64,000 bases of DNA from Promethearchaeota archaeon. GTDB taxonomy: Archaea > Asgardarchaeota > Heimdallarchaeia > Hodarchaeales > Hodarchaeaceae. Of this stretch, positions 2,398-59,575 are shown in pieces. How positions within the stretch are numbered: position 1 is the first letter of the stretch; every line of letters starts with the position of its first letter. The DNA lies in NCBI GenBank assembly GCA_048938105.1, contig JBHLMN010000014.1, forward strand, positions 32,001 to 96,000, given 5' to 3'. A program made the position numbers and the translations under genes. The notes beneath the pieces are model-generated. The model worked only from the letters and a program-made list of their open reading frames with translations, was not told the origin of the DNA and searched no databases.

Positions 2398-3135
2398 TTA
2401 GGTTTGAAAAAGTTGTGTTAATCTTAGATATAAATCATAAGCAGCACTTTTTTGAGCTTCTTTTTTGGTTTTACCATATCCTCTTCCTATTAGGATCTGA
2501 TTTTGATAAGTTCCTTGGCATGAGTACCAATATATAGGACTATGATCAACTCCTGCTTTCTTTTGAAATCGATAGGTGGGATTAGGTAGATTACGTTGTT
2601 GAAAAAACTCTTGGACTAGATTTTTCGGATTTTTCTCATTCTGACCCCATACTTTTAATTCCTCTTTTTCTTTGAGTAGAATTTTCTGTAAGTAGCCCTC
2701 AAAAAGTTGTAAGAGGAGTGTTTGACATGATTTTAGTCCATTAGCAATATATACCGCTCCAAAAATGGCTTCAACTGTATCAGCTAGGTCTTTTTTCTGA
2801 ATTTGGTAAGCTGGTGCGCAACGTAACATTGATTCAACCTGTAATTGTATTCCTACTTCTATTAACGTTTTATTTTGCACAATTTCAGCTCGTTTTATGG
2901 TTAAAATCCCTTCACTTTCAACTTCATGCTTATATAGCCAGTCGACTACTAGGAGATCTATGACTGAATCTCCTAACGTTTCGAGTCGTTGATTTGTATT
3001 AACGGTCGGATCCACTGATTTATAAGAAGGATGTGTAAGAGCTTCGAGAAGTAAAGGAACAGGTAGCTTTAAATTCCATTGAAGATTAAATTTTTGATAA
3101 TACGCCTTGTCCTTATCCAAAAACATCAGAACCAA
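2398..3135 (-). CDS. rnc: Ribonuclease III (RIIID + dsRBD); start possibly the ATG at 3126
   Basis: EALTHPSY, NQRLETLGDSV signature, ADTVEAIFGA, C-terminal dsRBD (NPKNLVQE...GYGKTKKEAQKSAA). Confidence 0.9.
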   Translation of the reverse strand: MVLMFLDKDKAYYQKFNLQWNLKLPVPLLLEALTHPSYKSVDPTVNTNQRLETLGDSVIDLLVVDWLYKHEVESEGILTIKRAEIVQNKTLIEVGIQLQVESMLRCAPAYQIQKKDLADTVEAIFGAVYIANGLKSCQTLLLQLFEGYLQKILLKEKEELKVWGQNEKNPKNLVQEFFQQRNLPNPTYRFQKKAGVDHSPIYWYSCQGTYQNQILIGRGYGKTKKEAQKSAAYDLYLRLTQLFQT

Positions 3136-4491: not shown

Positions 4492-4767
4492 TAATATGGG
4501 AAATTTGTTCTAGATTTCCACATAATAATCTGTAAAAATCATTGTTCAAAATCTAGATCTGTTGTGAAGAAGCCCCTATTTTGGAATTGAATGGATATTA
4601 GAATCTCCATTGTTCCTACACTGTCTATTATAACCAATTTATCTGTTCCTTATTGCATGAATTTCATTGATAGGATCTCTAGGAATACTTTATTTCCCTA
4701 TTTTCTTCATTACACCTTATTTAAGTTGTATTTAACAAAGTAACTTGTGAAAAAAGGATTTTAGAAG

Positions 4768-4907
4768 GGCCGGTGCCGGGAATCGAACCCGGACAGGGTG
4801 GGCCACAACCACCGATTATAGTGAATGAGGCAATTGTAAAAAGACCCCAATCAAGACTACCAGTGAATTATGAGTAAAAAACGACTCATATTTATCCTAC
4901 ACCGGCC
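4768..4907 (-). tRNA. tRNA-His(GUG) with encoded G-1 and two D-arm introns (about 15/16 at 4863-4891; about 25/26 at ~4815-4853)
   Basis: Minus strand: G-GCCGGTG...GGTGG-TTGTGGC-CCACC...CCGGG-TTCGATT-CCCGG-CACCGGC-C; BHB central helices GGAT/ATTC and TAGT/ACTA with paired inner hairpins. Confidence 0.9.
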
Positions 4908-4937
4908 AGATCGTCAAAATGCATTCAATTTCATGTG

Positions 4938-4945
4938 ATATAAAT
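4938..4945 (-). promoter_or_regulatory. Probable TATA box for tRNA-His
   Basis: TTTATATC on the minus strand about 30 nt upstream of G-1. Confidence 0.5.
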
Positions 4946-5040
4946 TACTACCTTTAATGTATCATTATAATATCATGACAATGATTCAATTGATTCATTG
5001 TTTTCCTTTCTTGAATATTGAATCCAAGTGTGGGGAAGAA

Positions 5041-6846
5041 TCAAAAGAATTTTGAATAATTTCTAAGGAATTCAAGGAATCTTTCTTTAAGATAAGTCGT
5101 TTCTCCTACATCTGTATTTCCAATGATCTTTTTAATAAAAATTTCAGAATTAAAGTCCATTTTCCTCCCCTTAAGGGCTTCCTCTCCATGTTTTAAAGAT
5201 TCTTTAACCTTTTGTATTAATGAACTATCTTCAAGTAATTTATTCCGATATTTCCTTAATATCACAGCTGCGATAATATCCCCCCAGCGTTGCATTTCTT
5301 GTTTACTCTTTCCCCAATAGCTTATGATAAGAACATTATTTTTCCTGGATATGTTGGTCAAACCACCAATCGAATAACCTTTTCTTATATATTCCAACTG
5401 TAGTTTTAATATACCTGTACCCCTTTTAACATCAAAATGTCCTATCGTTTTTAAAAAATCTAAGAGATAATCTCGTGCTGAAATACATCCTTTATGACTT
5501 CCAATTTCTCTTATTAACTTATTTTGGATGACCTCTCTTGCCTCCTGTTTTTCCCCAATTCTTCCGATTTCATAAGTTATTATATCAGCTTTTCCTATAA
5601 GATGACTTGATCCTGAAGAGATTCTCCCCCACCTATCTTCTGATATGACTTGTGTGGACAGATTTAATGAATTAACATCATTAAATTCATTAGTCTTTCT
5701 AGTTATTGAGTCTCTAATATTTTTATCTTGAATTAATGCAGCATTAAATCTGTTGAAACTATTGTTTCTGCTTTCATTGTAGAATATGGTTAAATTATCA
5801 CTAATATCTTTAAATTGCGTTTTCTTAGCATTTATCAAGTTATAAGTGATATTAATAGGTTTAGAATAGTTTATTTTAAGTTCTTGTATCTTTCTACAAA
5901 TCATCGTTGCAGGAATTTTCTTCACTTCTTCCCACCAATCAGATCTCGGATTTATCTCCTTTATTAACCATGACCAAAATTTAAACATTAATACTGATTT
6001 ATCACAAACATAGATTTCTGTTTCAAAAGAATTATCAGGTTCAGGGTCTCTTTCAGCATATAATTTTAATACAGACCGATTGCTGTCATATATCTCGAAT
6101 ATCTTCTGTTTTTGTGGAGAATCCTTAGCATGATTTCTGAAACCTGCATCACCCCCTAAATCTTCAACATGCTTCCAAAAAATACCCTCTAATATCTCAT
6201 CCGTTAATTCTTTTGTGATTTTAAGTTTAAATACTGTTTGAAACCAAGTTCTGTATTGTTCTTTTATTTTTAAGGGATAATGATACCCTTTTTTTTCTAA
6301 TTCCTTAATGATTAATATTTTAAGGTGAGGTATGTTATCAATCGAAATTTCTTTAGTAATAATTCTTATGAAAGTAAATTTCTGATTATTTTGTTTAATA
6401 TATTTTCTAAATCGTTCTAATCCATTCTTATTCCAGCTGGAATTTACGTTTAGAATTAAAAATTGCTCTAAGCTCCCATGATATGGATTGAGTATTGTTA
6501 TAGGTATGAAAGGGGTTATTCCTTCTAATTTACCTCTGAAAGTGAGCCAATCTTCATAACAATTGGTTGGAAATTGTTTTTTCGTCATAAATCCTTTCAT
6601 TTTTTCATAAATATCCTCATAGAAACGAAAATAAAATTGGTTGTTCGGTTTATTTATAAGAAAAAGTTGATTTTGGAATCTCTTTTTCAGGCTATCAAAT
6701 CTGATCCATATCTCATCTAAAGAAACTCTATTATTGTCAATTTTAGTATTCCAATATTTAATTATCTGTCTTAAAGTTGCTATGGAGGTTTTATCCTCTA
6801 GTGTTTCATTATAAGGTAATGGATACTGGATACGAATGCGAATCAT
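5041..6846 (-). CDS. Orphan 601-aa basic protein, paralog of 36969-39116, immediately upstream of tRNA-His
   Basis: Long intact ORF; collinear shared motifs (YEDW, SSWNKNG, ALIQD, ISEDRWG, EVIQNKLIREIG, IISYWG). Confidence 0.85.
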   Translation of the reverse strand: MIRIRIQYPLPYNETLEDKTSIATLRQIIKYWNTKIDNNRVSLDEIWIRFDSLKKRFQNQLFLINKPNNQFYFRFYEDIYEKMKGFMTKKQFPTNCYEDWLTFRGKLEGITPFIPITILNPYHGSLEQFLILNVNSSWNKNGLERFRKYIKQNNQKFTFIRIITKEISIDNIPHLKILIIKELEKKGYHYPLKIKEQYRTWFQTVFKLKITKELTDEILEGIFWKHVEDLGGDAGFRNHAKDSPQKQKIFEIYDSNRSVLKLYAERDPEPDNSFETEIYVCDKSVLMFKFWSWLIKEINPRSDWWEEVKKIPATMICRKIQELKINYSKPINITYNLINAKKTQFKDISDNLTIFYNESRNNSFNRFNAALIQDKNIRDSITRKTNEFNDVNSLNLSTQVISEDRWGRISSGSSHLIGKADIITYEIGRIGEKQEAREVIQNKLIREIGSHKGCISARDYLLDFLKTIGHFDVKRGTGILKLQLEYIRKGYSIGGLTNISRKNNVLIISYWGKSKQEMQRWGDIIAAVILRKYRNKLLEDSSLIQKVKESLKHGEEALKGRKMDFNSEIFIKKIIGNTDVGETTYLKERFLEFLRNYSKFF

Positions 6847-7273
6847 GGTTCAACTATGAATTCTTTGCTTTAAATGCCTTTGACACTATATAATCAAAGA
6901 AATTCTTTCCTAAAACTGACCAATTACACTAGATATACTCACACTGAGTGTCATATTGTTTTTCACATTTTGTGATATATAATGTGCTGTTAAAAATTAC
7001 TTATTTTTGTTAAAGAACCTGAAAATATCTTCTGTTTCCACTTTCACCATTTTATTATCATCCCATTATAATATAGGAAAAAATCTGCTTAAATTTTTCC
7101 TACACTAGCCAATATAATTGATAAATTGTTATAGTGGAATTTTTTAGTAGAACTACCATTTGAAACATTTAACAAATTGTGTTAAAATAATGTTGTCAAT
7201 CAAGTATACAAATATTATATTCTAATCTACTTGATAATATAGAGAACGATCTTACAATATTAATAAGGTATCT

Positions 7274-7843
7274 GTGAGTCAATTTAGGGTGGATAAAATG
7301 ACTGATAAAAGTCCTGATACATCACAACTCGGTTTAGTTCACGTGATTTCTGGAGATGGCAAAGGAAAAACAACCTCTGCTTTAGGGTTGGCATTTCGTG
7401 CCGCAGGACATGGATTTCGGACTTTAATTATCCAATTTATGAAAAAAGGGTGGATTTATGGCGAATTACAAGCTATTAAGGATATTCCTGAGATTGAAAT
7501 CATCCAATTTGGGACTCCTGAATTTGTCGATAAAGCAAAACCGAGGAAAATAGACTTTGATGAAGCTAGGGCTGCTTTAGATCGTACTCGTGTAGCCATT
7601 ACTGACGAAAAGTGGGATCTTTTAATTTTAGATGAAATTAATGTCGCTTTAGACTTTAAACTGATATCTGAGAATGATGTCATTGATTTAATTAAGCAAA
7701 AACCTAAAAACCTAGAGTTGATTTTAACAGGCAGAGACGCGTCGAACAGTATCATTGAGCTAGCAGATTACTATACAGAAATCTGTGAACGTAAACATCC
7801 GTATCAAAGGAAGATATTAGCCCGAAAAGGTGTTGAGTATTGA
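7274..7843 (+). CDS. cobA: Cob(I)alamin adenosyltransferase, CobA/BtuR/CobO family (start possibly the ATG at 7298)
   Basis: GDGKGKTTSALG, IQFMK, LILDEIN, ELILTGR, KHPY, RKGVEY. Confidence 0.93.
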   Translation: MSQFRVDKMTDKSPDTSQLGLVHVISGDGKGKTTSALGLAFRAAGHGFRTLIIQFMKKGWIYGELQAIKDIPEIEIIQFGTPEFVDKAKPRKIDFDEARAALDRTRVAITDEKWDLLILDEINVALDFKLISENDVIDLIKQKPKNLELILTGRDASNSIIELADYYTEICERKHPYQRKILARKGVEY

Positions 7844-9555
7844 CTTCAGAAACAAATAGTAGTGAAAAGCTTCCAATAAATGAAAAGAATAGCAATCTAG
7901 TTGAAATTAAAAGAAATCGTAAAGAATGGGAAAGTGTGTATGAAGAATCTGTAAAAAAACATCCAGAACGACTGTTGAAGTTCATGACAACTTCCAGTAA
8001 ACCTATCAATAGGATATACGATCCAACAGATCTTCCTACAAATTGGAACTATATAGAAGCCTTAGGATACCCAAGTATGTTCCCATTCACTCGTGGTGTT
8101 CAACCAACCATGTATCGTGGGCGGTTATGGACGATGCGTCAATTTGCTGGATTTGGAAGCGCTGAAGATACAAATAAGAGATTTAAATTTCTCTTAGCAA
8201 ATGGTATGACGGGATTAAGTGTTGCTTTCCACCTTCCTACAATATACGGTCGTGAATCAGATCATCCTATGTCACTTGGAGAAGTGGGTAAACTTGGAGT
8301 TGCTATTGATACATTAAAGGACATGGAAATCTTGTTTGATGGGATTCCCCTAGATCAAGTTACTACCTCTATGACCATCAATGCTCCAGCTTCAATATTA
8401 CTTGCTATGTACATTGCAGTAGCAGAGAAACAAGGAGTTTCTCCTGCTAAAATTGGTGGAACTATTCAGAATGACATTCTTAAGGAATTTATCGCTCAGA
8501 AGTCCTATATTTTTCCACCTAAACCATCAATGCGTATCATTGTGGATATTATTAAGTACTGTTCTGAGCATGTTCCTCGTTGGAATACAATCTCAATTTC
8601 TGGATATCATATCCGCGAAGCGGGGTCAACTGCTGCCCAAGAGCTAGCTTTTACTTTAGTAGATGGATTAGAATATGTAAAATGGGCTGTAAATGCGGGA
8701 ATGGACATCGATGATTTTGCTCCTAGATTGTCTTTCTTTTTTAATTCTCATAATGATCTGTTTGAAGAAATAGCTAAATATCGTGCTGCTCGACGAATTT
8801 GGGCCAAGCACATTAAGAAATACTCTCCTAAGAATCCTCGTTCTATGTGGTTACGATTTCATACTCAAACTGCTGGATGTTCCTTAACAGCTCAACAACC
8901 ATACAATAATGTTGTTAGAACCACGATTCAAGCCTTAGCAGCTATATTAGGTGGAACTCAGTCTCTTCACACAAACTCGTTAGATGAGGCGTTAGCTTTA
9001 CCTAGTGAAGAAGCAGTTGAGGTTGCATTGCGTACTCAACAAATTCTTGCTCATGAAAGCGGTGTCACAAATACAATTGATCCATTGGCTGGAAGTTATT
9101 ACATTGAAACATTGACAAATGAAATGGAAGAACAAGCTGAGGAATATTTTCATAAAATTCAGCAGCTAGGGGGCGTTATTCCTGCGATTGAAAAAGGATT
9201 TTTTCAACAAGAAATCTCTAATGCAGCATATCAGTACCAGAAAGAAATCGAGAAAAATCAAAGAGTGATTGTTGGAGTTAATGAATTCTGTACAGGGGAA
9301 AAAATCAAGGTGCCACTTCTTCTGATCGGAGAAAACGTAGCTAAACGTCAAATAGCACGATTACATCACACTAAAAAAGATCGTGACAACGAAGCAGTAA
9401 GAAGAGCTTTAGCTGAAGTGCGTGAAGCGGCTGAAGGCACCAAGAATTTAATGCCTCCAATTTTAAAGGCTGTGAAGGCGTATGCGTCCGTTGGTGAAAT
9501 ATGTGATGTTCTACGAGAGGTATTTGGGGAATGGAAAGGAGACCAATTGATCTAA
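7840..9555 (+). CDS. icmA: Acyl-CoA mutase large subunit, with isobutyryl-CoA mutase-type active-site residues
   Basis: FTRGVQPTMYRGRLWTMRQFAGFG, TIQNDILKEFIAQ, ISISGYHIREAG, QSLHTNSLDEA; family certain, substrate inferred. Confidence 0.85.
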   Translation: MTSETNSSEKLPINEKNSNLVEIKRNRKEWESVYEESVKKHPERLLKFMTTSSKPINRIYDPTDLPTNWNYIEALGYPSMFPFTRGVQPTMYRGRLWTMRQFAGFGSAEDTNKRFKFLLANGMTGLSVAFHLPTIYGRESDHPMSLGEVGKLGVAIDTLKDMEILFDGIPLDQVTTSMTINAPASILLAMYIAVAEKQGVSPAKIGGTIQNDILKEFIAQKSYIFPPKPSMRIIVDIIKYCSEHVPRWNTISISGYHIREAGSTAAQELAFTLVDGLEYVKWAVNAGMDIDDFAPRLSFFFNSHNDLFEEIAKYRAARRIWAKHIKKYSPKNPRSMWLRFHTQTAGCSLTAQQPYNNVVRTTIQALAAILGGTQSLHTNSLDEALALPSEEAVEVALRTQQILAHESGVTNTIDPLAGSYYIETLTNEMEEQAEEYFHKIQQLGGVIPAIEKGFFQQEISNAAYQYQKEIEKNQRVIVGVNEFCTGEKIKVPLLLIGENVAKRQIARLHHTKKDRDNEAVRRALAEVREAAEGTKNLMPPILKAVKAYASVGEICDVLREVFGEWKGDQLI

Positions 9556-32695: not shown

Positions 32696-33887
32696 TCAAT
32701 CGGACATCTCTCTTGGTTTTTCTATCATAATCAAGGATCCTCGGGCACTAATTCTACCAAGTTGGATAAATTTTGGAAGCGGTTTGAATTGGAGCGTCTG
32801 TCCATCAATGTTCATCAGAATTGCATACCCAGTAGACATACGACCCTTAATAAAATATTCGTTACCTTTGTATTTAACCTTATCAAACTTTCGGAAGCCA
32901 CAAATCTTACTGGTAGTAAGACATTGTTGACTACGAATCCCTTTGGTCTGTTGGTAATCCCCCGCTGCAACACATTTCTTTAAGAGAACTACTTCAGTTT
33001 TGAATTCAACAGTCTTGCCAAACTGATTTGCAATAGCAACTGCATCATAATAATGTTCTTTTGATAATTTCAAGTACTGTCGATAAGCTTTTGTAATATA
33101 TCCGAAAGTTTCAGTTACATTTACCCGTTTTAACAATTGACTTTGGATGTTATTCATTTGGGTTGCATGATTCAACTGTTTTTTACGTTTTCCATGTAAT
33201 TTATTTCTGACTTTATCTTGGATAACTTTAGGGCTATTATGAAGAGTTTTATGACAGGTTTGGCACATAGTAATTAGATTTTCTGGTTCATTACTGCCAT
33301 CATCCTTTCTATAAATGATGTGGTGACAACAGAGACGTCTATCTTTCGATTTTCCCTTACATTGCCAGCAAGTGTACTTATCACGATGGAGGACATATGC
33401 TTTAATATTTTCAAACTCATAATTAATTCCCTTTTGATAGAGCCATTTATTCTTTAGTACTACAGGATTTTTCAAGGCGTGAGGATCGAAGGTTGCAGTT
33501 TCAACAATAATATTACTAATTGGAACGCGGTTTTCTATAACGGGTTTTTCTAGTTCGGCGGTTTCGGCGGTATTTTGCCCTTCGATTCATTTTTCTCGTG
33601 ATGTCATCTCTCAATTCAACTTGACTCATATAGAAGACATTTCTATGTTCAATATCTACTACTGCTGAACCGAGTTTACGGCTTCCAGGGTCAATTCCTA
33701 GAACTAACGGTTGAATATATTCTGTTCTCGTCTTGTAAAGTAATTTAATTGTAAATGGTGTTTGATGTTTAACCTGTGCTTTCTCTTGTTTTAAGAGCAA
33801 GTGTGCGATAACGGGGCTACATGGCATTAATTGTCTACCATTCACATTAATAACATAAACTACCAATGTTTTTAACCTTTTATTCAA
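32696..33887 (-). pseudogene. iscB: IscB (OMEGA) RNA-guided nuclease, split by an internal deletion and frameshift near 33520
   Basis: QLMPC (PLMP domain), RuvC-I LGIDPGS, R-rich bridge helix, then in another frame PISNIIVETATFDPH, HNH (CCHH..N..NL..C..CH), RuvC-III HYYDAVAI. Confidence 0.92.
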
Positions 33888-34195
33888 CCATCTGAAAATT
33901 CAGATAGATCCTCCGTCAATAGTAAATGACGGGTAATGCGTATTCCTAGACTTTGACCATCTAGGAAATCCGACTTCACCTCGACAATGATAACCAGGCT
34001 TTTTACAGCTAAACCACCAGGCCATACCCTTAGACACTTTTTAAGTATAGCCGATAGAGCATCGATCTGGTGCGGCAATCGAAGGTATCCTGACCTGGTT
34101 ATCGGAGTCAGCATTTCTACTCACTAAGTCTGGTGAACTTGAACTTCCTTTTTTTGTGATATAGAAGTTCCATCTAGAAGGATGGGGTAGTTCAC
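33888..34195 (-). ncRNA. omegaRNA (HEARO-like) scaffold of IscB; guide would be the flank at ~34196-34215
   Basis: Begins GTGAACTACCCC...GTTCACCAGAC, contains CATTGTCGAG and several hairpins directly upstream of iscB. Confidence 0.85.
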
Positions 34196-36506: not shown

Positions 36507-36670
36507 GCGAGTAACCCAGATTTTTCTAATGGCTATTTTTCCTACATTTCCTTGTTATAATAGGAAGTAAGTAGATTGAATATTTATTCTAATCCAGCAC
36601 ATAAGAATAATTTTCTTGAGGAATTTAATTTAAATTAGCAATAAAAATCGATGAATCAAACCAGATCTGT

Positions 36671-36708
36671 GCGCTGATAGTCTAGTCTGGTAGGACTCCA
36701 GCTTCATT
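36671..36708 (+). tRNA. 5' half (nt 1-37) of a split / giant-intron tRNA with a Gly-type body
   Basis: GCGCTGA-TA-GTCT-AGTCTGGTA-GGAC-T-CCAGC-TTCATT; CCAGC is complementary to GCTGG at 39400, not to the adjacent tRNA. Confidence 0.8.
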
Positions 36709-36827
36709 AAAACTTACATAAAAAATTATTGAATGAGTCTCAATAATATGATTTGGACATGATGAGATAAAAAATACTATTAAATTGAAAAATCAAACAA
36801 AATAACACATACTTAATGAGCTTTAAT

Positions 36828-36901
36828 GCGCTGATAATCTAGTTTGGTTAGGATACTTGCCTCCCAAGCAAGCGACCCGGGTTCAAATCCCGGTCGGCGC
36901 A
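36828..36901 (+). tRNA. tRNA-Gly(CCC), intronless, nested between the two halves
   Basis: GCGCTGA/TCGGCGC-A acceptor, CTTGC-CTCCCAA-GCAAG, CCGGG-TTCAAAT-CCCGG. Confidence 0.96.
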
Positions 36902-36902
36902 C

Positions 36903-36907
36903 TTTTT
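36903..36907 (+). terminator. Oligo-T terminator after tRNA-Gly(CCC)
   Basis: TTTTT 2 nt after the discriminator base. Confidence 0.5.
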
Positions 36908-36968
36908 AAATAGTAGTAACATTTTAAGCTTAGAATTATTTATAACTAACCTTTTTGGAACTATATTT

Positions 36969-39116
36969 CTAGTAATATCCTCTCTTAGAGTGCTTCCATA
37001 GAGTATATAGATAAATATCTCGAAATAACGTTTCTTCGCCTGCATTAAAGTTTAAAATACTTATAAGTTCATTGATTTTCGTTCTTGTATTATTATCCAA
37101 TTCTCTCTTAAAACCAATAGCCTCTTCTCCATATTTATTTAGGATTTCGGTTACATGGGTCACTAAGATGTCAGAATTTTTGATATTTCGTTTGAATAAG
37201 CCATGACGAATCGCAGATGTAACTTCCATTAAACGGCCAAGCTTATAATCACTCTCTCCCCAATAACTGAGAATTAGGATGTTAAAATCCTTTTGTTCAT
37301 TAATAAAACAATTTGAAACACTTCCTTTTGGTATAAATTCAACTTGTAAATTCTTTACTTTACCTGATGTCAAGTCATAATTACCTAATGTTTTTAATTC
37401 ATCAAATAAGAAAGTAGAATCTCGAAGTTTTCCCTTCTTATTCCCTAATTCACGTATAAATTTCGTTTGAACGATTTCACAAGCTTTTTGATTAGCTCTA
37501 GTAATATTGTCAGGGAAAGTAATCAAATTCTTATGTGTTTTTATATATCCCCATTTTATTTCGGAAACTACTTTTAATGGGAGATCTAAGTTCCCTAACT
37601 GATTTCTTTCCTGTGTAAATAGTGTAATTCTAAGACGAATCTTTGGATCTTGAATGACAGCACCCACAAATGCTGGTAATCCTTTCGGATTATTTTCATC
37701 TAAAAATTCCTTGAGATTTCTATTAATTGGGCCAATATTCGGGAATTTCTCTGCCTGGTCAATGCTATAAATTATTCCAGAATAATGCAGATGCTTACTT
37801 TGTTTTCTTATTTTCTGAATTGCTCTTGCTAGATGCATTGGAGTTATTTTTGTTCTAACTTTGTTCCACCATTTATTAAAATCGGTTCTATCACTAGGAA
37901 ATTTATTCTGATTATTTATTTCTTTAGTGATAGCATCAATAAGTTTTGATCTATCCTGTAAATAAATTTTAGTGGAATTACAAATGTTCGGATAATAGAG
38001 TTCATCTGTAATAAAGATCACTCTTCTACCTTTATCTTCAAAAGATTTTACTATTTTTTGAACATTCTTATATCTAGATAGCCAATTTGGTTTTAAATCA
38101 TCAATATATTCCCAAAATTTAATTTCTAAGTAGTCATCAAGGAGTAACTCATCAAATTTAGGTCGATACACTTTTTTGAAGCCATTTCGAGCTTGCCATG
38201 ATTCTTCGGGATATCCAATGTCCATTGCTTTTAATTCAGCAATTATTTCGTCCATTAATGTGATTCTGATACTGCTTAGTTTTGGTTTATATGGATTGAT
38301 CGTTTCCATCAGGTAATCCATTATTTTTCTTCTTGCACCTGTTTTTTTAGCAAATAGAAAAGGCTTAATGCCATTCTTATTCCATGTAGATTTAGCATTA
38401 CGAATGTAATATGTTTCCCTTAACCCTGTAGATGGATTGACGATGTTAAGATCAATTAGACATTTTTTTCCAACAATTTTATTTCTAAGAATAAACCATT
38501 CTTCATAAAAGCCAGGAGTGAAACATGAGGTTCCAAGATCAATTTCAAAATCTTGAAACACTTTAAGACGTTCAAATTCGTCACTATTATAGCGAAATCT
38601 CCTTAGGGGAGCTCCATATATTTGTTGGATCTCGTTGTAAAGATACCACATATGAGATGTCGGAGCTATCTTTTCTTTCACAATCTCATTCCATTTCTGT
38701 GAAAACAGAAGGAAGTCTTTAAAATTCCCATGTTTTCGCCCCTGCTCTCCGTATTTCAGAGTTTCTATTAAATGTTTTTGATGAAACATATATTGAGTAT
38801 ATCTATGCTTGAATATTCTCATATTTACAAAGCTATTATCAATTTTTGAGGAGATCACATCATTATAATCATTAGCTTCCCCTTTTCGAATGAATTCTCT
38901 TATGATAGCGTATGACGAAGTAAATTCAGTACTAACAATTTCTTTGATAAGTGTTGGGTTATTCACCCACTTTCGCCATTTTCCACTTAAGTACATAGTA
39001 TGAGGAAGGATCAAATAGTCCAAAAGTTCAATAGTTTTCGTTTCTTCAGGGAATGGATCGTCAAAATACCCTGGTTGAGTTTTTTTTCTATCGTTAGTCA
39101 GCAATTGATCGTTCAC
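36969..39116 (-). CDS. Orphan 715-aa basic protein inside the split tRNA, paralog of 5041-6846
   Basis: Long intact ORF; motifs YEEW, STWNKNG, AVIQD, VSEIKWG, EIVQTKFIRELG, ILSYWG. Confidence 0.85.
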   Translation of the reverse strand: MNDQLLTNDRKKTQPGYFDDPFPEETKTIELLDYLILPHTMYLSGKWRKWVNNPTLIKEIVSTEFTSSYAIIREFIRKGEANDYNDVISSKIDNSFVNMRIFKHRYTQYMFHQKHLIETLKYGEQGRKHGNFKDFLLFSQKWNEIVKEKIAPTSHMWYLYNEIQQIYGAPLRRFRYNSDEFERLKVFQDFEIDLGTSCFTPGFYEEWFILRNKIVGKKCLIDLNIVNPSTGLRETYYIRNAKSTWNKNGIKPFLFAKKTGARRKIMDYLMETINPYKPKLSSIRITLMDEIIAELKAMDIGYPEESWQARNGFKKVYRPKFDELLLDDYLEIKFWEYIDDLKPNWLSRYKNVQKIVKSFEDKGRRVIFITDELYYPNICNSTKIYLQDRSKLIDAITKEINNQNKFPSDRTDFNKWWNKVRTKITPMHLARAIQKIRKQSKHLHYSGIIYSIDQAEKFPNIGPINRNLKEFLDENNPKGLPAFVGAVIQDPKIRLRITLFTQERNQLGNLDLPLKVVSEIKWGYIKTHKNLITFPDNITRANQKACEIVQTKFIRELGNKKGKLRDSTFLFDELKTLGNYDLTSGKVKNLQVEFIPKGSVSNCFINEQKDFNILILSYWGESDYKLGRLMEVTSAIRHGLFKRNIKNSDILVTHVTEILNKYGEEAIGFKRELDNNTRTKINELISILNFNAGEETLFRDIYLYTLWKHSKRGYY

Positions 39117-39398
39117 AATAAAGAATTCTCTTCCATCTTTTTTAAAACTATTATTCCCCTAATTACAAGTTATAAAATCTTTAATTCCTCTGTATTCGCC
39201 ATAATCTTAATGTTTTTTGATAATATTCCCTAGAGTGATGAGATATGGATTTTTTCAGAGCTTTATCATTTCACTTCATACTTTTGTCTTACTTTTATCT
39301 TCTTTTATTTCACTTAATTCTCTACTCTTAATTCTAGGACAAAAGGAGTTGTTATATTCATATCAAGATATATAAAACGATTCTAAGAACTTTGAAAT

Positions 39399-39462
39399 TG
39401 CTGGTGACCCGGGTTCAAAAACCATCCACTTTAGAGGATTGCTGGAAATCCCGGTCGGCGCA
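39399..39462 (+). tRNA. 3' half (nt 38-73) of the split tRNA, with a 29-nt intron at 59/60 (39420-39448)
   Basis: T-GCTGG-TGAC-CCGGG-TTCAAA[intron]T-CCCGG-TCGGCGC-A; BHB central helix TTCA/TGGA. Confidence 0.82.
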
Positions 39463-39490
39463 TCCTCCTAGTTAATAAACTGATGCTACA

Positions 39491-59088: not shown

Positions 59089-59166
59089 GGATCCGTGGCT
59101 TAGCCAGGATAGAGCGGCGGCCTTCTAAGTCGCAGGTCGGGGGTTCAAATCCCCTCGGATCCGCCA
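59089..59166 (+). tRNA. tRNA-Arg(UCU), intronless, CCA encoded
   Basis: GGATCCG/CGGATCC-G-CCA; GCGGC-CTTCTAA-GTCGC. Confidence 0.96.
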
Positions 59167-59185
59167 TATCTGCTTTATTGGAAAT

Positions 59186-59289
59186 GGACTCGTGGCTTAG
59201 CTTGGATAGAGCATCTGCCTCCTATTTCTAAATCTATATAAGTTGAAAGAGATAGCAGAGGGTCGGGGGTTCAAATCCCCCCGAGTCCG
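59186..59289 (+). tRNA. tRNA-Arg(CCU) with canonical 37/38 intron (59225-59253)
   Basis: TCTGC-CTCCTA[29 nt]A-GCAGA; relaxed BHB CTCC/AGAG. Confidence 0.92.
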
Positions 59290-59305
59290 TTTGGAATCGT
59301 TTCAT

Positions 59306-59408
59306 GGGCCCTTGGCTTAGCTTGGATAGAGCGCTTGCCTCCGGAGTAAAAGATTGGTTTCCCAAATATTCTCTACAGAGGTCGTGAGTTCGAATCTCAC
59401 AGGGCCCG
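59306..59408 (+). tRNA. tRNA-Arg(CCG) with non-canonical intron at 41/42 (59349-59376)
   Basis: CTTGC-CTCCGGA-GTA[28 nt]AG; BHB central helix GGAG/CTCT with two 3-nt bulges. Confidence 0.9.
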
Positions 59409-59575
59409 TAAATTCGTTAAAAGGGGAAAAATAGCCTTTCTGAAAACAAGTTTTTTTTCCATGTTTCTCTTTCTAGCAAAAGTAGAGAGCGTAGATATGA
59501 AACCATAAATAAAAAGCTAGGATTGTGAACCATAGTATGGACTAAAGCAAATTCAGTTCGCGTATATAGCATATC

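What the first reader, a model, noticed from the sequence alone, without database searches (positions are those of the whole stretch)
4768..6846. Second family member sits directly upstream of the two-intron tRNA-His
Seen: the 601-aa gene ends about 134 nt upstream of tRNA-His on the same strand, with an ACAATGA/TCATTGT hairpin (~4979-5001) between them. I found no tRNA half or att duplication on its far side (6847-7273). The geometry therefore differs from the Gly locus (upstream and sense, versus internal and antisense). This does not fit ordinary tyrosine-integrase integration at tRNA 3' ends.
Basis: partly seen in the sequence, partly recalled or inferred. Interest (0 to 1): 0.7.

Follow-up and report, generated by a model that had tools for sequence, protein, structure and literature searches.

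The report
Selfish cassette inside the tRNA-His gene
The 601-residue orphan gene is the only gene of a 2.3-kb foreign insert that landed inside this Asgard archaeon's sole histidine-tRNA gene and rebuilt it with its own promoter, front part and an extra intron. It probably encodes a new site-specific DNA-cutting enzyme, which would give a concrete route for archaeal tRNA introns to spread.

Summary
The gene (5041-6846, minus) does end 133 nt upstream of a two-intron tRNA-His (4768-4907). A decayed copy of the tRNA's 5' exon plus D-loop intron lies on the far side (7063-7111), next to the native promoter.

Relatives give clean empty sites, and a mangrove metagenome contig joins 4815 directly to 7098. 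So about 2.25 kb (4816 to about 7062) is an insertion inside the tRNA gene at position 24/25. It brings a promoter, a new 5' part and a 39-nt bulge-helix-bulge intron that sits exactly at the junction.

That intron occurs in 5 of 82 class genomes. All five carry the gene, a relic of it or a scar. Paralogous cassettes split tRNA-Gly(CCC) and tRNA-Ser(CGA), and the proteins cluster by target.

The protein matches no known family. Its high-confidence model has a PD..QxK motif on an alpha-beta-beta-beta-alpha-beta core, and only weak fold hits, many to PD-(D/E)XK nucleases.

Best reading (0.6): a free-standing homing-type nuclease working with an intron that protects its own allele.

This scan had already described the family from the Gly paralog. 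It had also noted nuclease-plus-spare-tRNA cassettes on other DNA (bacteria, phages). I found no paper on it.

The parts
4768..4815 (-). 3' exon of tRNA-His (anticodon arm, variable loop, T arm, acceptor 3' strand, C73). This is the native part of the gene, followed by the native 3' flank.
   Evidence: Homologous to the empty-site genomes up to 4815 and into the downstream flank (G008: 4676-4815, 79%; alignment). Every empty allele in the metagenome runs breaks at 4815/4816 or 4810.
4816..4854 (-). Intron 2 (39 nt) at tRNA position 24/25. It is a strict bulge-helix-bulge intron and lies exactly at the cassette/native junction.
   Evidence: Central helix GTAG/CTAT, bulges TCT and AAT, inner helix TGA.TGGGG/CCTCA.TCA, outer helix CACTG/CGGTG. 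Absent from all empty sites. Found in only 5 of 82 class genomes, with conserved ends and a middle stem that stays paired with different bases.
4855..4862 (-). 8-nt middle exon (TGGTAGTC), brought by the cassette.
   Evidence: alignment to intron-less genes.
4863..4891 (-). Intron 1 (29 nt, D-loop 15/16), the cassette's own version.
   Evidence: Bulge-helix-bulge with helix GGAT/ATTC and inner helix TATGAGT/ACTCATA. Its sequence differs from the native-type intron kept in the far-side remnant.
4892..4907 (-). 5' exon with G-1, brought by the cassette.
4908..5040 (-). Spacer carrying the cassette's own tRNA promoter (conserved AATTTATATCA...AAATTGAATGCATTTTGA block, about 4912-4952) and the 4978-5001 palindrome.
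   Evidence: No homology to the native upstream region of the empty sites. The block is conserved in L079 and G012. The palindrome is not conserved.
5041..6846 (-). FAM601, the only ORF of the cassette. An orphan protein with a C-terminal domain that may have a PD-(D/E)XK-type nuclease fold (residues about 345-601).
   Evidence: No Pfam, PHROG or NCBIfam hit. AlphaFold2 pLDDT 87 for the whole protein and 92.8 for the C-terminal domain. Invariant E358, R378, D421, Q441, K443, W511 and R520. dN/dS 0.23 against L079. GC 29-30% against 36-39% around it.
6847..7062 (-). Cassette DNA upstream of FAM601 (its 5' UTR and promoter region). It ends at the remnant.
   Evidence: No counterpart in the empty sites. 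Skipped by the empty-allele contig of run X3.
7063..7111 (-). Decayed native 5' exon plus native-type intron 1 of the original tRNA-His, displaced by the insertion.
   Evidence: A better preserved copy is in L079. No significant similarity to the tRNA beyond the D-loop.
7112..7273 (-). Native tRNA-His promoter and the intergenic region shared with the divergent cobO gene. It now points into the cassette, in the same direction as FAM601.
   Evidence: 78.7% identical to the region upstream of G008's tRNA-His.
36672..39463 (+). Paralogous cassette at the Gly locus. Layout: native tRNA-Gly(CCC) 5' part (36672-36706); spare promoter; complete intron-less spare tRNA-Gly(CCC) (36828-36902); FAM715 antisense (36969-39116); native 3' part with T-loop intron (39401-39463).
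   Evidence: Empty sites in G007, G009, G011, G012, G014 and G020; the same insertion in G003.

Best explanation
FAM601 is the single gene of a roughly 2.25-kb mobile cassette that inserted into the chromosomal tRNA-His gene between the D arm and the anticodon arm (position 24/25).

Shown:
- The insertion displaced the native promoter and 5' part, which now decay on the far side.
- It supplied a new promoter, a new 5' part (with its own D-loop intron) and a 39-nt bulge-helix-bulge intron that bridges to the native 3' part.
- The cell's only tRNA-His therefore stays functional after two splicing events.
- Sister cassettes of the same protein family do the same to tRNA-Gly(CCC) and tRNA-Ser(CGA), each bringing a whole or partial replacement tRNA.

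Inferred:
- FAM601 is a site-specific DNA endonuclease with a PD-(D/E)XK-like C-terminal domain.
- It cuts the uninterrupted tRNA-His gene near position 24/25 in cells or incoming DNA that lack the cassette.
- Repair from a cassette-bearing copy then carries the gene and its tRNA allele into the cut site.
- Intron 2 interrupts the recognition site, so the cassette's own allele is not cut.
- This is the logic of a free-standing homing endonuclease working together with an intron ('collaborative homing'), but with an archaeal protein-spliced intron in place of a group I intron.
- The present one-remnant layout could arise if a cassette carrying a full spare tRNA inserted, and the two 3' parts, lying as direct repeats, then recombined.
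For: Insertion and its limits:
- Empty sites in G008 (no introns) and in G009, G011 and G014 (intron 1 only).
- A contig of an independent mangrove run joins 4815 to 7098 with TAATGGTAGTC between them.
- The far-side remnant is present in G000 and in L079.

The tRNA still works:
- It is the sole tRNA-His gene.
- Both bulge-helix-bulge motifs are clean and the mature sequence folds into a cloverleaf.

Link between intron 2 and the cassette (only 5 of 82 class genomes carry intron 2):
- G000 has an intact FAM gene.
- G002 has FAM with one stop codon and an IS element.
- G012 has a 59-aa FAM relic.
- G017 has a remnant, with FAM deleted.
- G013 has the intron-2 allele truncated by a different cassette.

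The family behaves the same way elsewhere:
- Gly cassette.
- Ser(CGA) cassettes in G010, G011, G002 and G019, with G000 as the empty site.
- The proteins form His, Gly and Ser clades, each with 100% support.

Patchy and restricted distribution:
- 50 representatives among 1.84 billion proteins.
- Matches in 11 of the 20 other genomes of one genus and in none of the 39 genomes searched outside it.
- On a CobO+MCM tree, cassette lineages are separated by scar-free empty lineages.

The gene is functional and looks foreign:
- dN/dS 0.23 over 601 codons.
- GC 29-30%.

Hints of a nuclease:
- Invariant D421, Q441-x-K443, E358 and R378.
- In the AlphaFold2 model, D421 lies at the start of a strand and Q441/K443 on the next strand of an alpha-beta-beta-beta-alpha-beta core.
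- No Foldseek hit is significant. The weak lists from two libraries hold many PD-(D/E)XK folds: EcoRV, MspI, HincII and Cas4 in the PDB, together with tRNA-splicing endonuclease subunits; 'PD-(D/E)XK nuclease', herpesvirus UL24, a resolvase and a restriction enzyme in BFVD.

Precedent:
- F-CphI with the psbA intron (PMC6083498).
- SegB, which cuts inside tRNA genes (PMC2330249).
Against: - No statistically significant sequence or fold match to any nuclease. Best Foldseek E-value is 0.017, and Pfam and PDB profile searches were empty.
- The motif has Q where D or E is usual.
- Classic homing by gene conversion does not by itself produce a duplicated 5' part, so an extra step is needed (insertion of a full spare, then collapse of the direct repeats).
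- For the Ser cassettes I see no consistent sequence difference at the junction that would protect the spare.
- The clades by target could also reflect simple vertical descent after three old insertions.
- No activity, expression or excision data: no RNA run holds the stretch.
Confidence: 0.6

Rival explanations
1. FAM601 is a new kind of site-specific recombinase or integrase. The cassette is a minimal integrative element whose attP contains the 5' part of tRNA-His. Integration by a single crossover duplicates that part and rebuilds the gene, as classical integrases do at tRNA 3' ends.
For: - The 5' part of the tRNA is duplicated at the His locus and at the Ser loci. This is what attL and attR would look like.
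- The cassette has only one ORF, so that ORF should be its mobility enzyme.
Against: - No tyrosine-, serine- or DDE-recombinase signal in Pfam, NCBIfam or PHROGs, and no fold hits to recombinases.
- The Gly cassette has no repeated core at its ends. It splits the anticodon loop and carries a complete spare tRNA.
- Intron 2 lies between the repeated part and the native 3' part, which a simple crossover would not create.
- No terminal inverted or direct repeats beyond the tRNA pieces.
- No circular junction seen in the contigs laid.
Confidence: 0.17
2. The cassette is mobile or laterally exchanged, but FAM601 is cargo and not the mobility enzyme. It could be a defence or toxin gene, or an RNA-level nuclease that attacks the native tRNA while the altered tRNA serves as a resistant antidote. 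Insertion would then be done in trans by other machinery or by ordinary homologous recombination between relatives.
For: - Purifying selection shows a function but not which one.
- The fold hits include RNA-cutting tRNA-splicing endonuclease subunits.
- The N-terminal domain also occurs in larger, different proteins.
Against: - The native genes are broken at the DNA level, at defined positions inside three different tRNAs.
- Each target goes with its own protein clade.
- No other gene travels with the cassettes. The IS in G002 is a secondary insertion.
Confidence: 0.13
3. FAM601 is an old, vertically inherited host gene of the genus that has been lost repeatedly. Its position next to tRNA genes is incidental or regulatory.
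For: - The gene is at the same locus in G000, L079, G012 (relic) and G002.
- The clades follow the loci.
Against: - Empty sites keep the native promoter joined to an uninterrupted 5' part, with no scar and no intron 2. Documented losses do leave scars (G012, G017).
- A displaced, decaying native 5' part lies beside the gene.
- GC is 7-9 points lower than in the neighbours.
- The same design occurs at three tRNA genes.
- Vertical descent needs at least 7 precise losses, against 2-3 gains, on the locus tree.
Confidence: 0.05

Closest known systems
Collaborative homing: free-standing endonuclease F-CphI next to the intron-containing psbA gene of cyanophage S-PM2 (Zeng, Bonocora & Shub 2009, as summarised in PMC6083498)
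   Same: - A free-standing nuclease gene lies beside a gene whose intron has no ORF.
- The intron sits at the site the enzyme would cut, so the enzyme's own allele is spared.
- Intron and enzyme occur together across genomes.
   Different: - Here the intron is an archaeal bulge-helix-bulge intron removed by the host splicing endonuclease, not a self-splicing group I intron.
- The host gene is a tRNA of a cellular archaeon, not a phage protein gene.
- The protein belongs to no described endonuclease family.
- The insertion duplicated part of the target and brought its own promoter.
- Cleavage is untested.
Phage T4 SegB, a free-standing GIY-YIG homing endonuclease in the tRNA gene cluster (PMC2330249)
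   Same: - A free-standing nuclease gene among tRNA genes.
- It recognises a conserved tRNA-gene sequence and drags the neighbouring tRNA genes into genomes that lack it.
   Different: - SegB is GIY-YIG and sits between intact tRNA genes.
- It does not split a tRNA gene, leaves no tRNA remnant and involves no intron.
I-Ssp6803I, the PD-(D/E)xK homing endonuclease. The family is listed in PMC3943268. That it lies in a group I intron of a cyanobacterial tRNA-fMet gene is from my own knowledge.
   Same: - A PD-(D/E)xK-type enzyme associated with an interrupted tRNA gene.
- Its target is the uninterrupted tRNA gene.
   Different: - I-Ssp6803I is small and encoded inside the intron.
- FAM601 has 601 aa, is encoded outside the intron and shows no detectable sequence similarity.
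- Its PD-(D/E)xK assignment is tentative.
Integrase-driven integrative elements and proviruses at archaeal tRNA genes, for example HeimV1 at tRNA-Gly(CCC) in Heimdallarchaeum (PMC8813620)
   Same: Foreign DNA at a tRNA gene, with part of the tRNA duplicated and the gene rebuilt by element DNA.
   Different: - No integrase.
- Only one orphan ORF in 2.3 kb.
- The junction is in the D-arm/anticodon-arm region and the 5' part is duplicated, not the 3' end.
- At Gly, a whole spare tRNA is carried inside a split gene.
Nuclease-plus-spare-tRNA cassettes noted earlier in this scan (GIY-YIG in Patescibacteria, HNH in giant phages). These are AI notes, not publications.
   Same: The same 'cut and replace' design: one nuclease gene plus a replacement tRNA sits inside a broken tRNA gene.
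   Different: - Those carry recognisable GIY-YIG or HNH nucleases and are in bacteria or phages.
- This is an archaeal version with an unrecognised protein.
- At His, a protein-spliced intron forms part of the rebuilt gene.

Membership tests
PD-(D/E)XK nuclease superfamily | Significant sequence match to a curated family model | tested here: not met
   Pfam, NCBIfam and PHROGs gave no hit for FAM601 or FAM715. No Pfam family was shared by the 37 aligned members. Profile searches against PDB sequences were empty.
PD-(D/E)XK nuclease superfamily | Alpha-beta-beta-beta-alpha-beta core fold | tested here: inconclusive
PD-(D/E)XK nuclease superfamily | Catalytic D ... (D/E)-x-K on strands 2 and 3, often with an E on helix 1 | tested here: inconclusive
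   D421 (consensus 'PD') is invariant at the start of strand 422-427. Q441-x-K443 is invariant on strand 433-444. E438 is nearly invariant and E358 invariant. Q replaces the usual acidic residue. I had no coordinates to check side-chain geometry.
Homing endonuclease gene (functional class) | Presence/absence polymorphism at one fixed site in a conserved gene among close relatives | tested here: met
   His locus. Gly locus. Ser locus.
Homing endonuclease gene (functional class) | The enzyme cleaves the empty allele at or near the insertion site, and the occupied allele is resistant | not testable with these tools
   Only indirect evidence. Intron 2 sits exactly at the junction and occurs only in lineages with a cassette history. 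The spare tRNA-Gly differs in 3 of 5 anticodon-stem pairs next to the split.
Tyrosine/serine-recombinase integrative element | An integrase gene with the family's catalytic domain | tested here: not met
   No such domain in the only ORF, and no recombinase among the fold hits.
Tyrosine/serine-recombinase integrative element | Direct repeats (att core) at both ends, derived from the target tRNA | tested here: inconclusive
   At His and Ser the 5' part of the tRNA is present twice. Intron 2 lies between the repeat and the native part. The Gly cassette has no repeated core.
Archaeal bulge-helix-bulge (protein-spliced) tRNA intron | A 4-bp central helix flanked by two 3-nt bulges on opposite strands, with cleavage that yields the exact mature sequence | tested here: met
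   Intron 2: GTAG/CTAT with bulges TCT and AAT. Intron 1: GGAT/ATTC with bulges AAA and ACT. The product equals the intron-less genes of G008, G020 and G006 and folds into a cloverleaf.
Archaeal bulge-helix-bulge (protein-spliced) tRNA intron | Maintained under selection (essential gene, structure kept through sequence change) | tested here: met
   It is the sole tRNA-His. Intron 2 in G000, G012, G002 and G017 keeps its ends, and its inner stem stays paired with different bases. Splicing itself has not been observed.

The most novel reading that the evidence does not exclude
FAM601 and its relatives are a seventh, archaeal family of homing-type endonucleases that spread together with protein-spliced (bulge-helix-bulge) introns and replacement tRNA alleles. 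If so, at least some non-canonical tRNA introns of Asgard archaea are gained by allele replacement driven by a selfish nuclease. The position of such an intron would then mark the nuclease's cut site.
Probability: 0.4. Interest if true: 0.85.

Novelty: new variant of a known kind. Interest (0 to 1): 0.7.

Why it matters
- How archaeal tRNA introns arrive is an open question. An October 2026 preprint on Asgard tRNA introns tested copying between tRNA genes, known mobile elements and reverse transcription, and concluded that 'how they arrive remains open' (10.64898/2026.10.13.758758). Its mobile-element test relied on hallmark proteins, which would miss an orphan gene like this one.
- Here one intron gain (tRNA-His 24/25) is tied to a defined insertion with empty-site controls. 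That makes a mechanism directly testable.
- If the protein is a nuclease, it is a new family of long-target, tRNA-gene-specific enzymes from the archaeal lineage nearest to eukaryotes.
- The tRNA-His locus of this genus also shows serial take-over by unrelated cassettes (G013). This looks like an arms race over an essential single-copy gene.

Tried and rejected
- The Atlas could not read the window's protein. For the homologue P0004 it gave only sub-threshold look-alikes on a poor model.

Searches that found nothing useful:
- Pfam, PHROGs and NCBIfam on both paralogs, on six long fused relatives and on all aligned members.
- PDB sequence-profile searches.
- Whole-protein and C-terminal-domain Foldseek searches against PDB and BFVD: no hit at E <= 0.001.
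- Rfam on three loci with long family members found no RNA gene, so their targets are unknown.
- The metagenome scan gave only two loci. One alignment was too diverse to be searched with.

Ideas tested and dropped:
- Does the far-side remnant continue into the anticodon and T arms? The local alignment score was no better than shuffles or other window segments, so I claim only the 5' exon and intron 1.
- Terminal inverted or direct repeats shared by the His and Gly cassettes: none convincing.
- The ACAATGA/TCATTGT hairpin as a signal: not unusual and not conserved.
- The lower dS of FAM601 (0.28 against 0.38-0.63) as a sign of recent transfer: too weak, given the AT-rich codons.
- ARAGORN's 'tRNA-Gly with a 2136-nt intron' on contig C52 is a false call inside ordinary genes.
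- The 864-aa ORF of G013 and the 416-aa ORF of G002 are not family members by hhalign.

Expression:
- No RNA holder was listed for the stretch, so nothing can be said about expression.
Full report
WHAT IS THERE

The window is G000:C9:32001-96000 of a 5.85-Mb, 99%-complete assembly. Source names given to homologues place it among Hodarchaeota / Heimdall-group Asgard archaea. The flagged ORF (5041-6846, minus strand, 601 aa) lies 133 nt upstream of a tRNA-His on the same strand (4768-4907). ARAGORN does not see this tRNA. Rfam reports it at 29.2 bits only when the region is searched alone.

Splitting the 140 nt gives:
- a 16-nt 5' exon;
- a 29-nt intron;
- an 8-nt exon;
- a 39-nt intron;
- a 48-nt 3' exon.

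The result is a 72-nt molecule with G-1, C73 and anticodon GUG that folds into a perfect cloverleaf. Both introns form strict bulge-helix-bulge motifs whose cleavage gives exactly the sequence of the intron-less genes of relatives. No other tRNA-His exists in the assembly, so this gene has to work.

THE KEY CORRECTION

There is one. In relatives the order is RNase III, a 382-aa coiled-coil gene, tRNA-His, cobO, then methylmalonyl-CoA mutase, with only 340-490 nt between the coiled-coil gene and cobO.

- G008 has an intron-less tRNA-His. Its 3' half and downstream flank match window 4676-4815. Its 5' exon and upstream region match window 7095-7244 (78.7%, E 3e-32).
- G009, G011 and G014 have the same layout plus the D-loop intron. 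G009's intron matches window 7063-7111.
- Read on the minus strand, 7111->7063 is GGCTAGTGTAGGAAAA followed by a native-type intron and TGG. This is a decaying copy of the first third of the gene, sitting behind the native promoter.
- A metagenome contig 87.7% identical over 7 kb (L079) has the same cassette, and its remnant still has a perfect 16-nt 5' exon.
- A contig from an unrelated mangrove run joins 4815 to 7098 with TAATGGTAGTC between, which is an empty allele. Other contigs of independent runs cover both junctions of the occupied form.
- I could not show that the remnant extends beyond the D-loop.

So 4816 to about 7062 is inserted DNA. It contains intron 2, the 8-nt exon, its own version of intron 1, the 5' exon, a conserved promoter block, FAM601 and 216 nt upstream of it. 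Its GC content is 29-30%, against 36-39% around it.

INTRON 2 TRAVELS WITH THE CASSETTE

Intron 2 lies exactly where cassette DNA meets native DNA. A pattern search over 82 genomes of the class finds it in five:
- G000;
- G002, where FAM is in the opposite orientation, has one stop codon, and has an IS4-type transposase inserted beside it;
- G012, where only the last 59 codons of FAM remain, followed by the same spacer, promoter and both introns;
- G017, which has intron 2 and a short 5' remnant but has lost FAM;
- G013.

G013 is the near-twin of G002. Its intron-2 allele has lost its first 8 nt to a different cassette: an 864-aa orphan ORF with its own inverted tRNA-His.

None of the scar-free empty sites has intron 2. 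Its ends are conserved (TTGA...CACTATAA, with TTACTATAA in G017), and its inner stem stays paired with different bases.

THE FAMILY

FAM601 and the 715-aa gene at 36969-39116 are 30% identical over 560 residues. An exhaustive profile search of 1.84 billion representative proteins finds only 50 relatives. Among 59 related genomes, matches occur in 11 of the 20 others of the same genus and in none of the 39 outside it. They are often fragments or carry stop codons.

At the Gly locus, relatives have cofE, a tRNA-Gly(CCC) with a T-loop intron, then OTC. In G000 and G003 that tRNA is split in the anticodon loop. Between the halves lie a promoter, a complete intron-less spare tRNA-Gly(CCC) and the antisense family gene.

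Four further members (G010, G011, G002:C80, G019) at first looked associated with tRNA-Leu(CAG). In fact they split the neighbouring tRNA-Ser(CGA). A 16-26-nt 5' remnant abuts the gene's 3' end, and a complete tRNA-Ser with a new upstream region follows. G000 contig C18 is the empty site.

The remnants in G002 and G019 end at about position 25/26, close to the 24/25 junction at His. On a protein tree the His, Gly and Ser members form three clades, each with 100% support. Three long members (785-1174 aa) have no RNA gene nearby. The N-terminal domain alone also occurs in larger proteins.

GAIN OR LOSS?

On a CobO+MCM tree the cassette or its scars occur in three places:
- G000+L079;
- G012;
- the G002/G013/G017 group.

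Scar-free empty lineages lie between them. Documented losses leave intron 2 and the foreign promoter behind (G012, G017). The empties instead have the native promoter joined to an uninterrupted 5' part. I therefore infer two or three independent arrivals at the same nucleotide position, and not seven or more perfect losses. The opposite orientation of the gene in G002 agrees with separate events, although the IS there could have caused an inversion. The tree has moderate support, and this step is inference.

WHAT THE PROTEIN IS

No Pfam, PHROG or NCBIfam model matches. AlphaFold2 with the family alignment gives confident models: pLDDT 87 for the whole protein and 92.8 for residues 345-601.

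The invariant residues are E358, R378, D421, Q441, K443, W511 and R520. The consensus reads 'PD' at 420-421 and 'ExxQxK' at 438-443. D421 opens one strand, and Q441/K443 lie on the next strand of an alpha-beta-beta-beta-alpha-beta unit. This is the layout of PD-(D/E)XK nucleases, with Q in place of the acidic residue.

Foldseek finds nothing significant. Still, both weak-hit lists hold many members of that superfamily:
- PDB: EcoRV, MspI, HincII and Cas4. The same list also has tRNA-splicing endonuclease subunits.
- BFVD: several 'PD-(D/E)XK nuclease' entries, herpesvirus UL24, a resolvase and a restriction enzyme.

I treat the nuclease assignment as probable, not shown. The gene is under purifying selection (dN/dS 0.23 against L079; neighbours 0.09-0.13).

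HOW IT MOST LIKELY WORKS

Shown: a one-gene cassette sits inside an essential single-copy tRNA gene and keeps that gene working by supplying a promoter, a 5' part and a spliceable linker.

Inferred: the protein cuts the uninterrupted gene near 24/25, repair from an occupied copy transfers the cassette, and intron 2 protects the occupied allele by splitting the site. This is the logic of 'collaborative homing' described for F-CphI and the psbA intron (PMC6083498), and of SegB, which recognises a tRNA-gene sequence and spreads neighbouring tRNA genes (PMC2330249).

The duplicated 5' part needs one more step. I propose insertion of a cassette carrying a full spare (as at Gly), followed by recombination between the two 3' parts. 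In G000 the displaced native tRNA promoter points into FAM601, so it may now drive the gene. That is speculation.

RIVALS

- A novel integrase with its att site in the tRNA 5' part fits the duplication. It does not fit the Gly layout, the position of intron 2 or the lack of any recombinase signal.
- A cargo or RNA-toxin reading is not excluded.
- Plain vertical inheritance is contradicted by the empty sites and the remnants.

RELATION TO EARLIER WORK

Before I looked at this scan's notes I had reached the cassette reading. The notes then showed that a follow-up on the Gly paralog (e1-5540233) came to the same view. They also showed that nuclease-plus-spare-tRNA cassettes with GIY-YIG or HNH genes were noted on bacterial and phage DNA. 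These are unchecked AI notes. I found no paper describing this family or an archaeal case.

What this report adds:
- the far-side remnant;
- the exact limits of the cassette;
- the tie between intron 2 and the cassette;
- the third target, tRNA-Ser(CGA);
- the selection test;
- the empty allele in reads;
- the serial replacement in G013.

VERDICT

The feature is real and unusual: an orphan-gene cassette that splits and rebuilds tRNA genes, with a protein-spliced intron as part of the repair. The enzyme mechanism remains to be tested.

Noticed in passing
L060 (G013:C10) 4612-7568: A different orphan ORF (864 aa, no Pfam hit) with its own inverted, intron-1-only tRNA-His has cut off the first 8 nt of the intron-2 tRNA-His allele. 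So a second, unrelated cassette has taken over the same gene. Its C-terminal part resembles that of P0032 and P0036, which carry the FAM N-terminal domain (E about 1e-9).
   Followed up: partly
G000:C18:2-255, and L072-L075: tRNA-Leu(CAG) is followed after about 15 nt by a two-intron tRNA-Ser(CGA), with an anticodon-loop intron and a T-loop intron. The latter is the real target of the 'Leu-adjacent' family members.
   Followed up: partly
window 32696-34195 (minus): A HEARO (IscB guide) RNA at 33969-34195 (108.8 bits). Downstream of it are two ORFs of 123 and 259 aa, the second with HNH-like CxxC motifs. This looks like an IscB-type element split or frameshifted, in an Asgard genome.
   Followed up: no
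window 2398-3135 (minus): A bacterial/eukaryotic-type RNase III with a dsRNA-binding domain (Pfam E 6e-23 and 7e-11). It is conserved in the same position in the relatives G005, G009, G010, G011 and G014.
   Followed up: no
window 59089-59409 (plus): Three tRNA-Arg genes in tandem (TCT, CCT, CCG). The last two each have a 29-nt intron at the same position.
   Followed up: no
L053 (G002:C50) 6781-8031: An IS4-type DDE transposase (PF01609, E 5e-12) is inserted inside the His cassette of G002, beside a FAM copy that carries one TAA stop.
   Followed up: partly
G000:C46:48225-49013, G002:C91, G017:C158 and G017:C33: The N-terminal roughly 230 residues of the family also occur inside much longer ORFs (916-1521 aa) that lack the C-terminal domain, so the family is modular.
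   Followed up: no
G000 genome (ARAGORN list): ARAGORN calls a tRNA with anticodon CUA ('tRNA-Pyl') in this genome. G003's Gly-type family gene has one in-frame TAG. I did not check whether TAG is recoded here.
   Followed up: no
window 36645-36666 and 36782-36803: The region upstream of the spare tRNA-Gly resembles the native tRNA-Gly promoter region (77% over 22 nt). The spare's anticodon stem matches the G012-type native gene. So the spare was probably captured from a relative's chromosome.
   Followed up: partly
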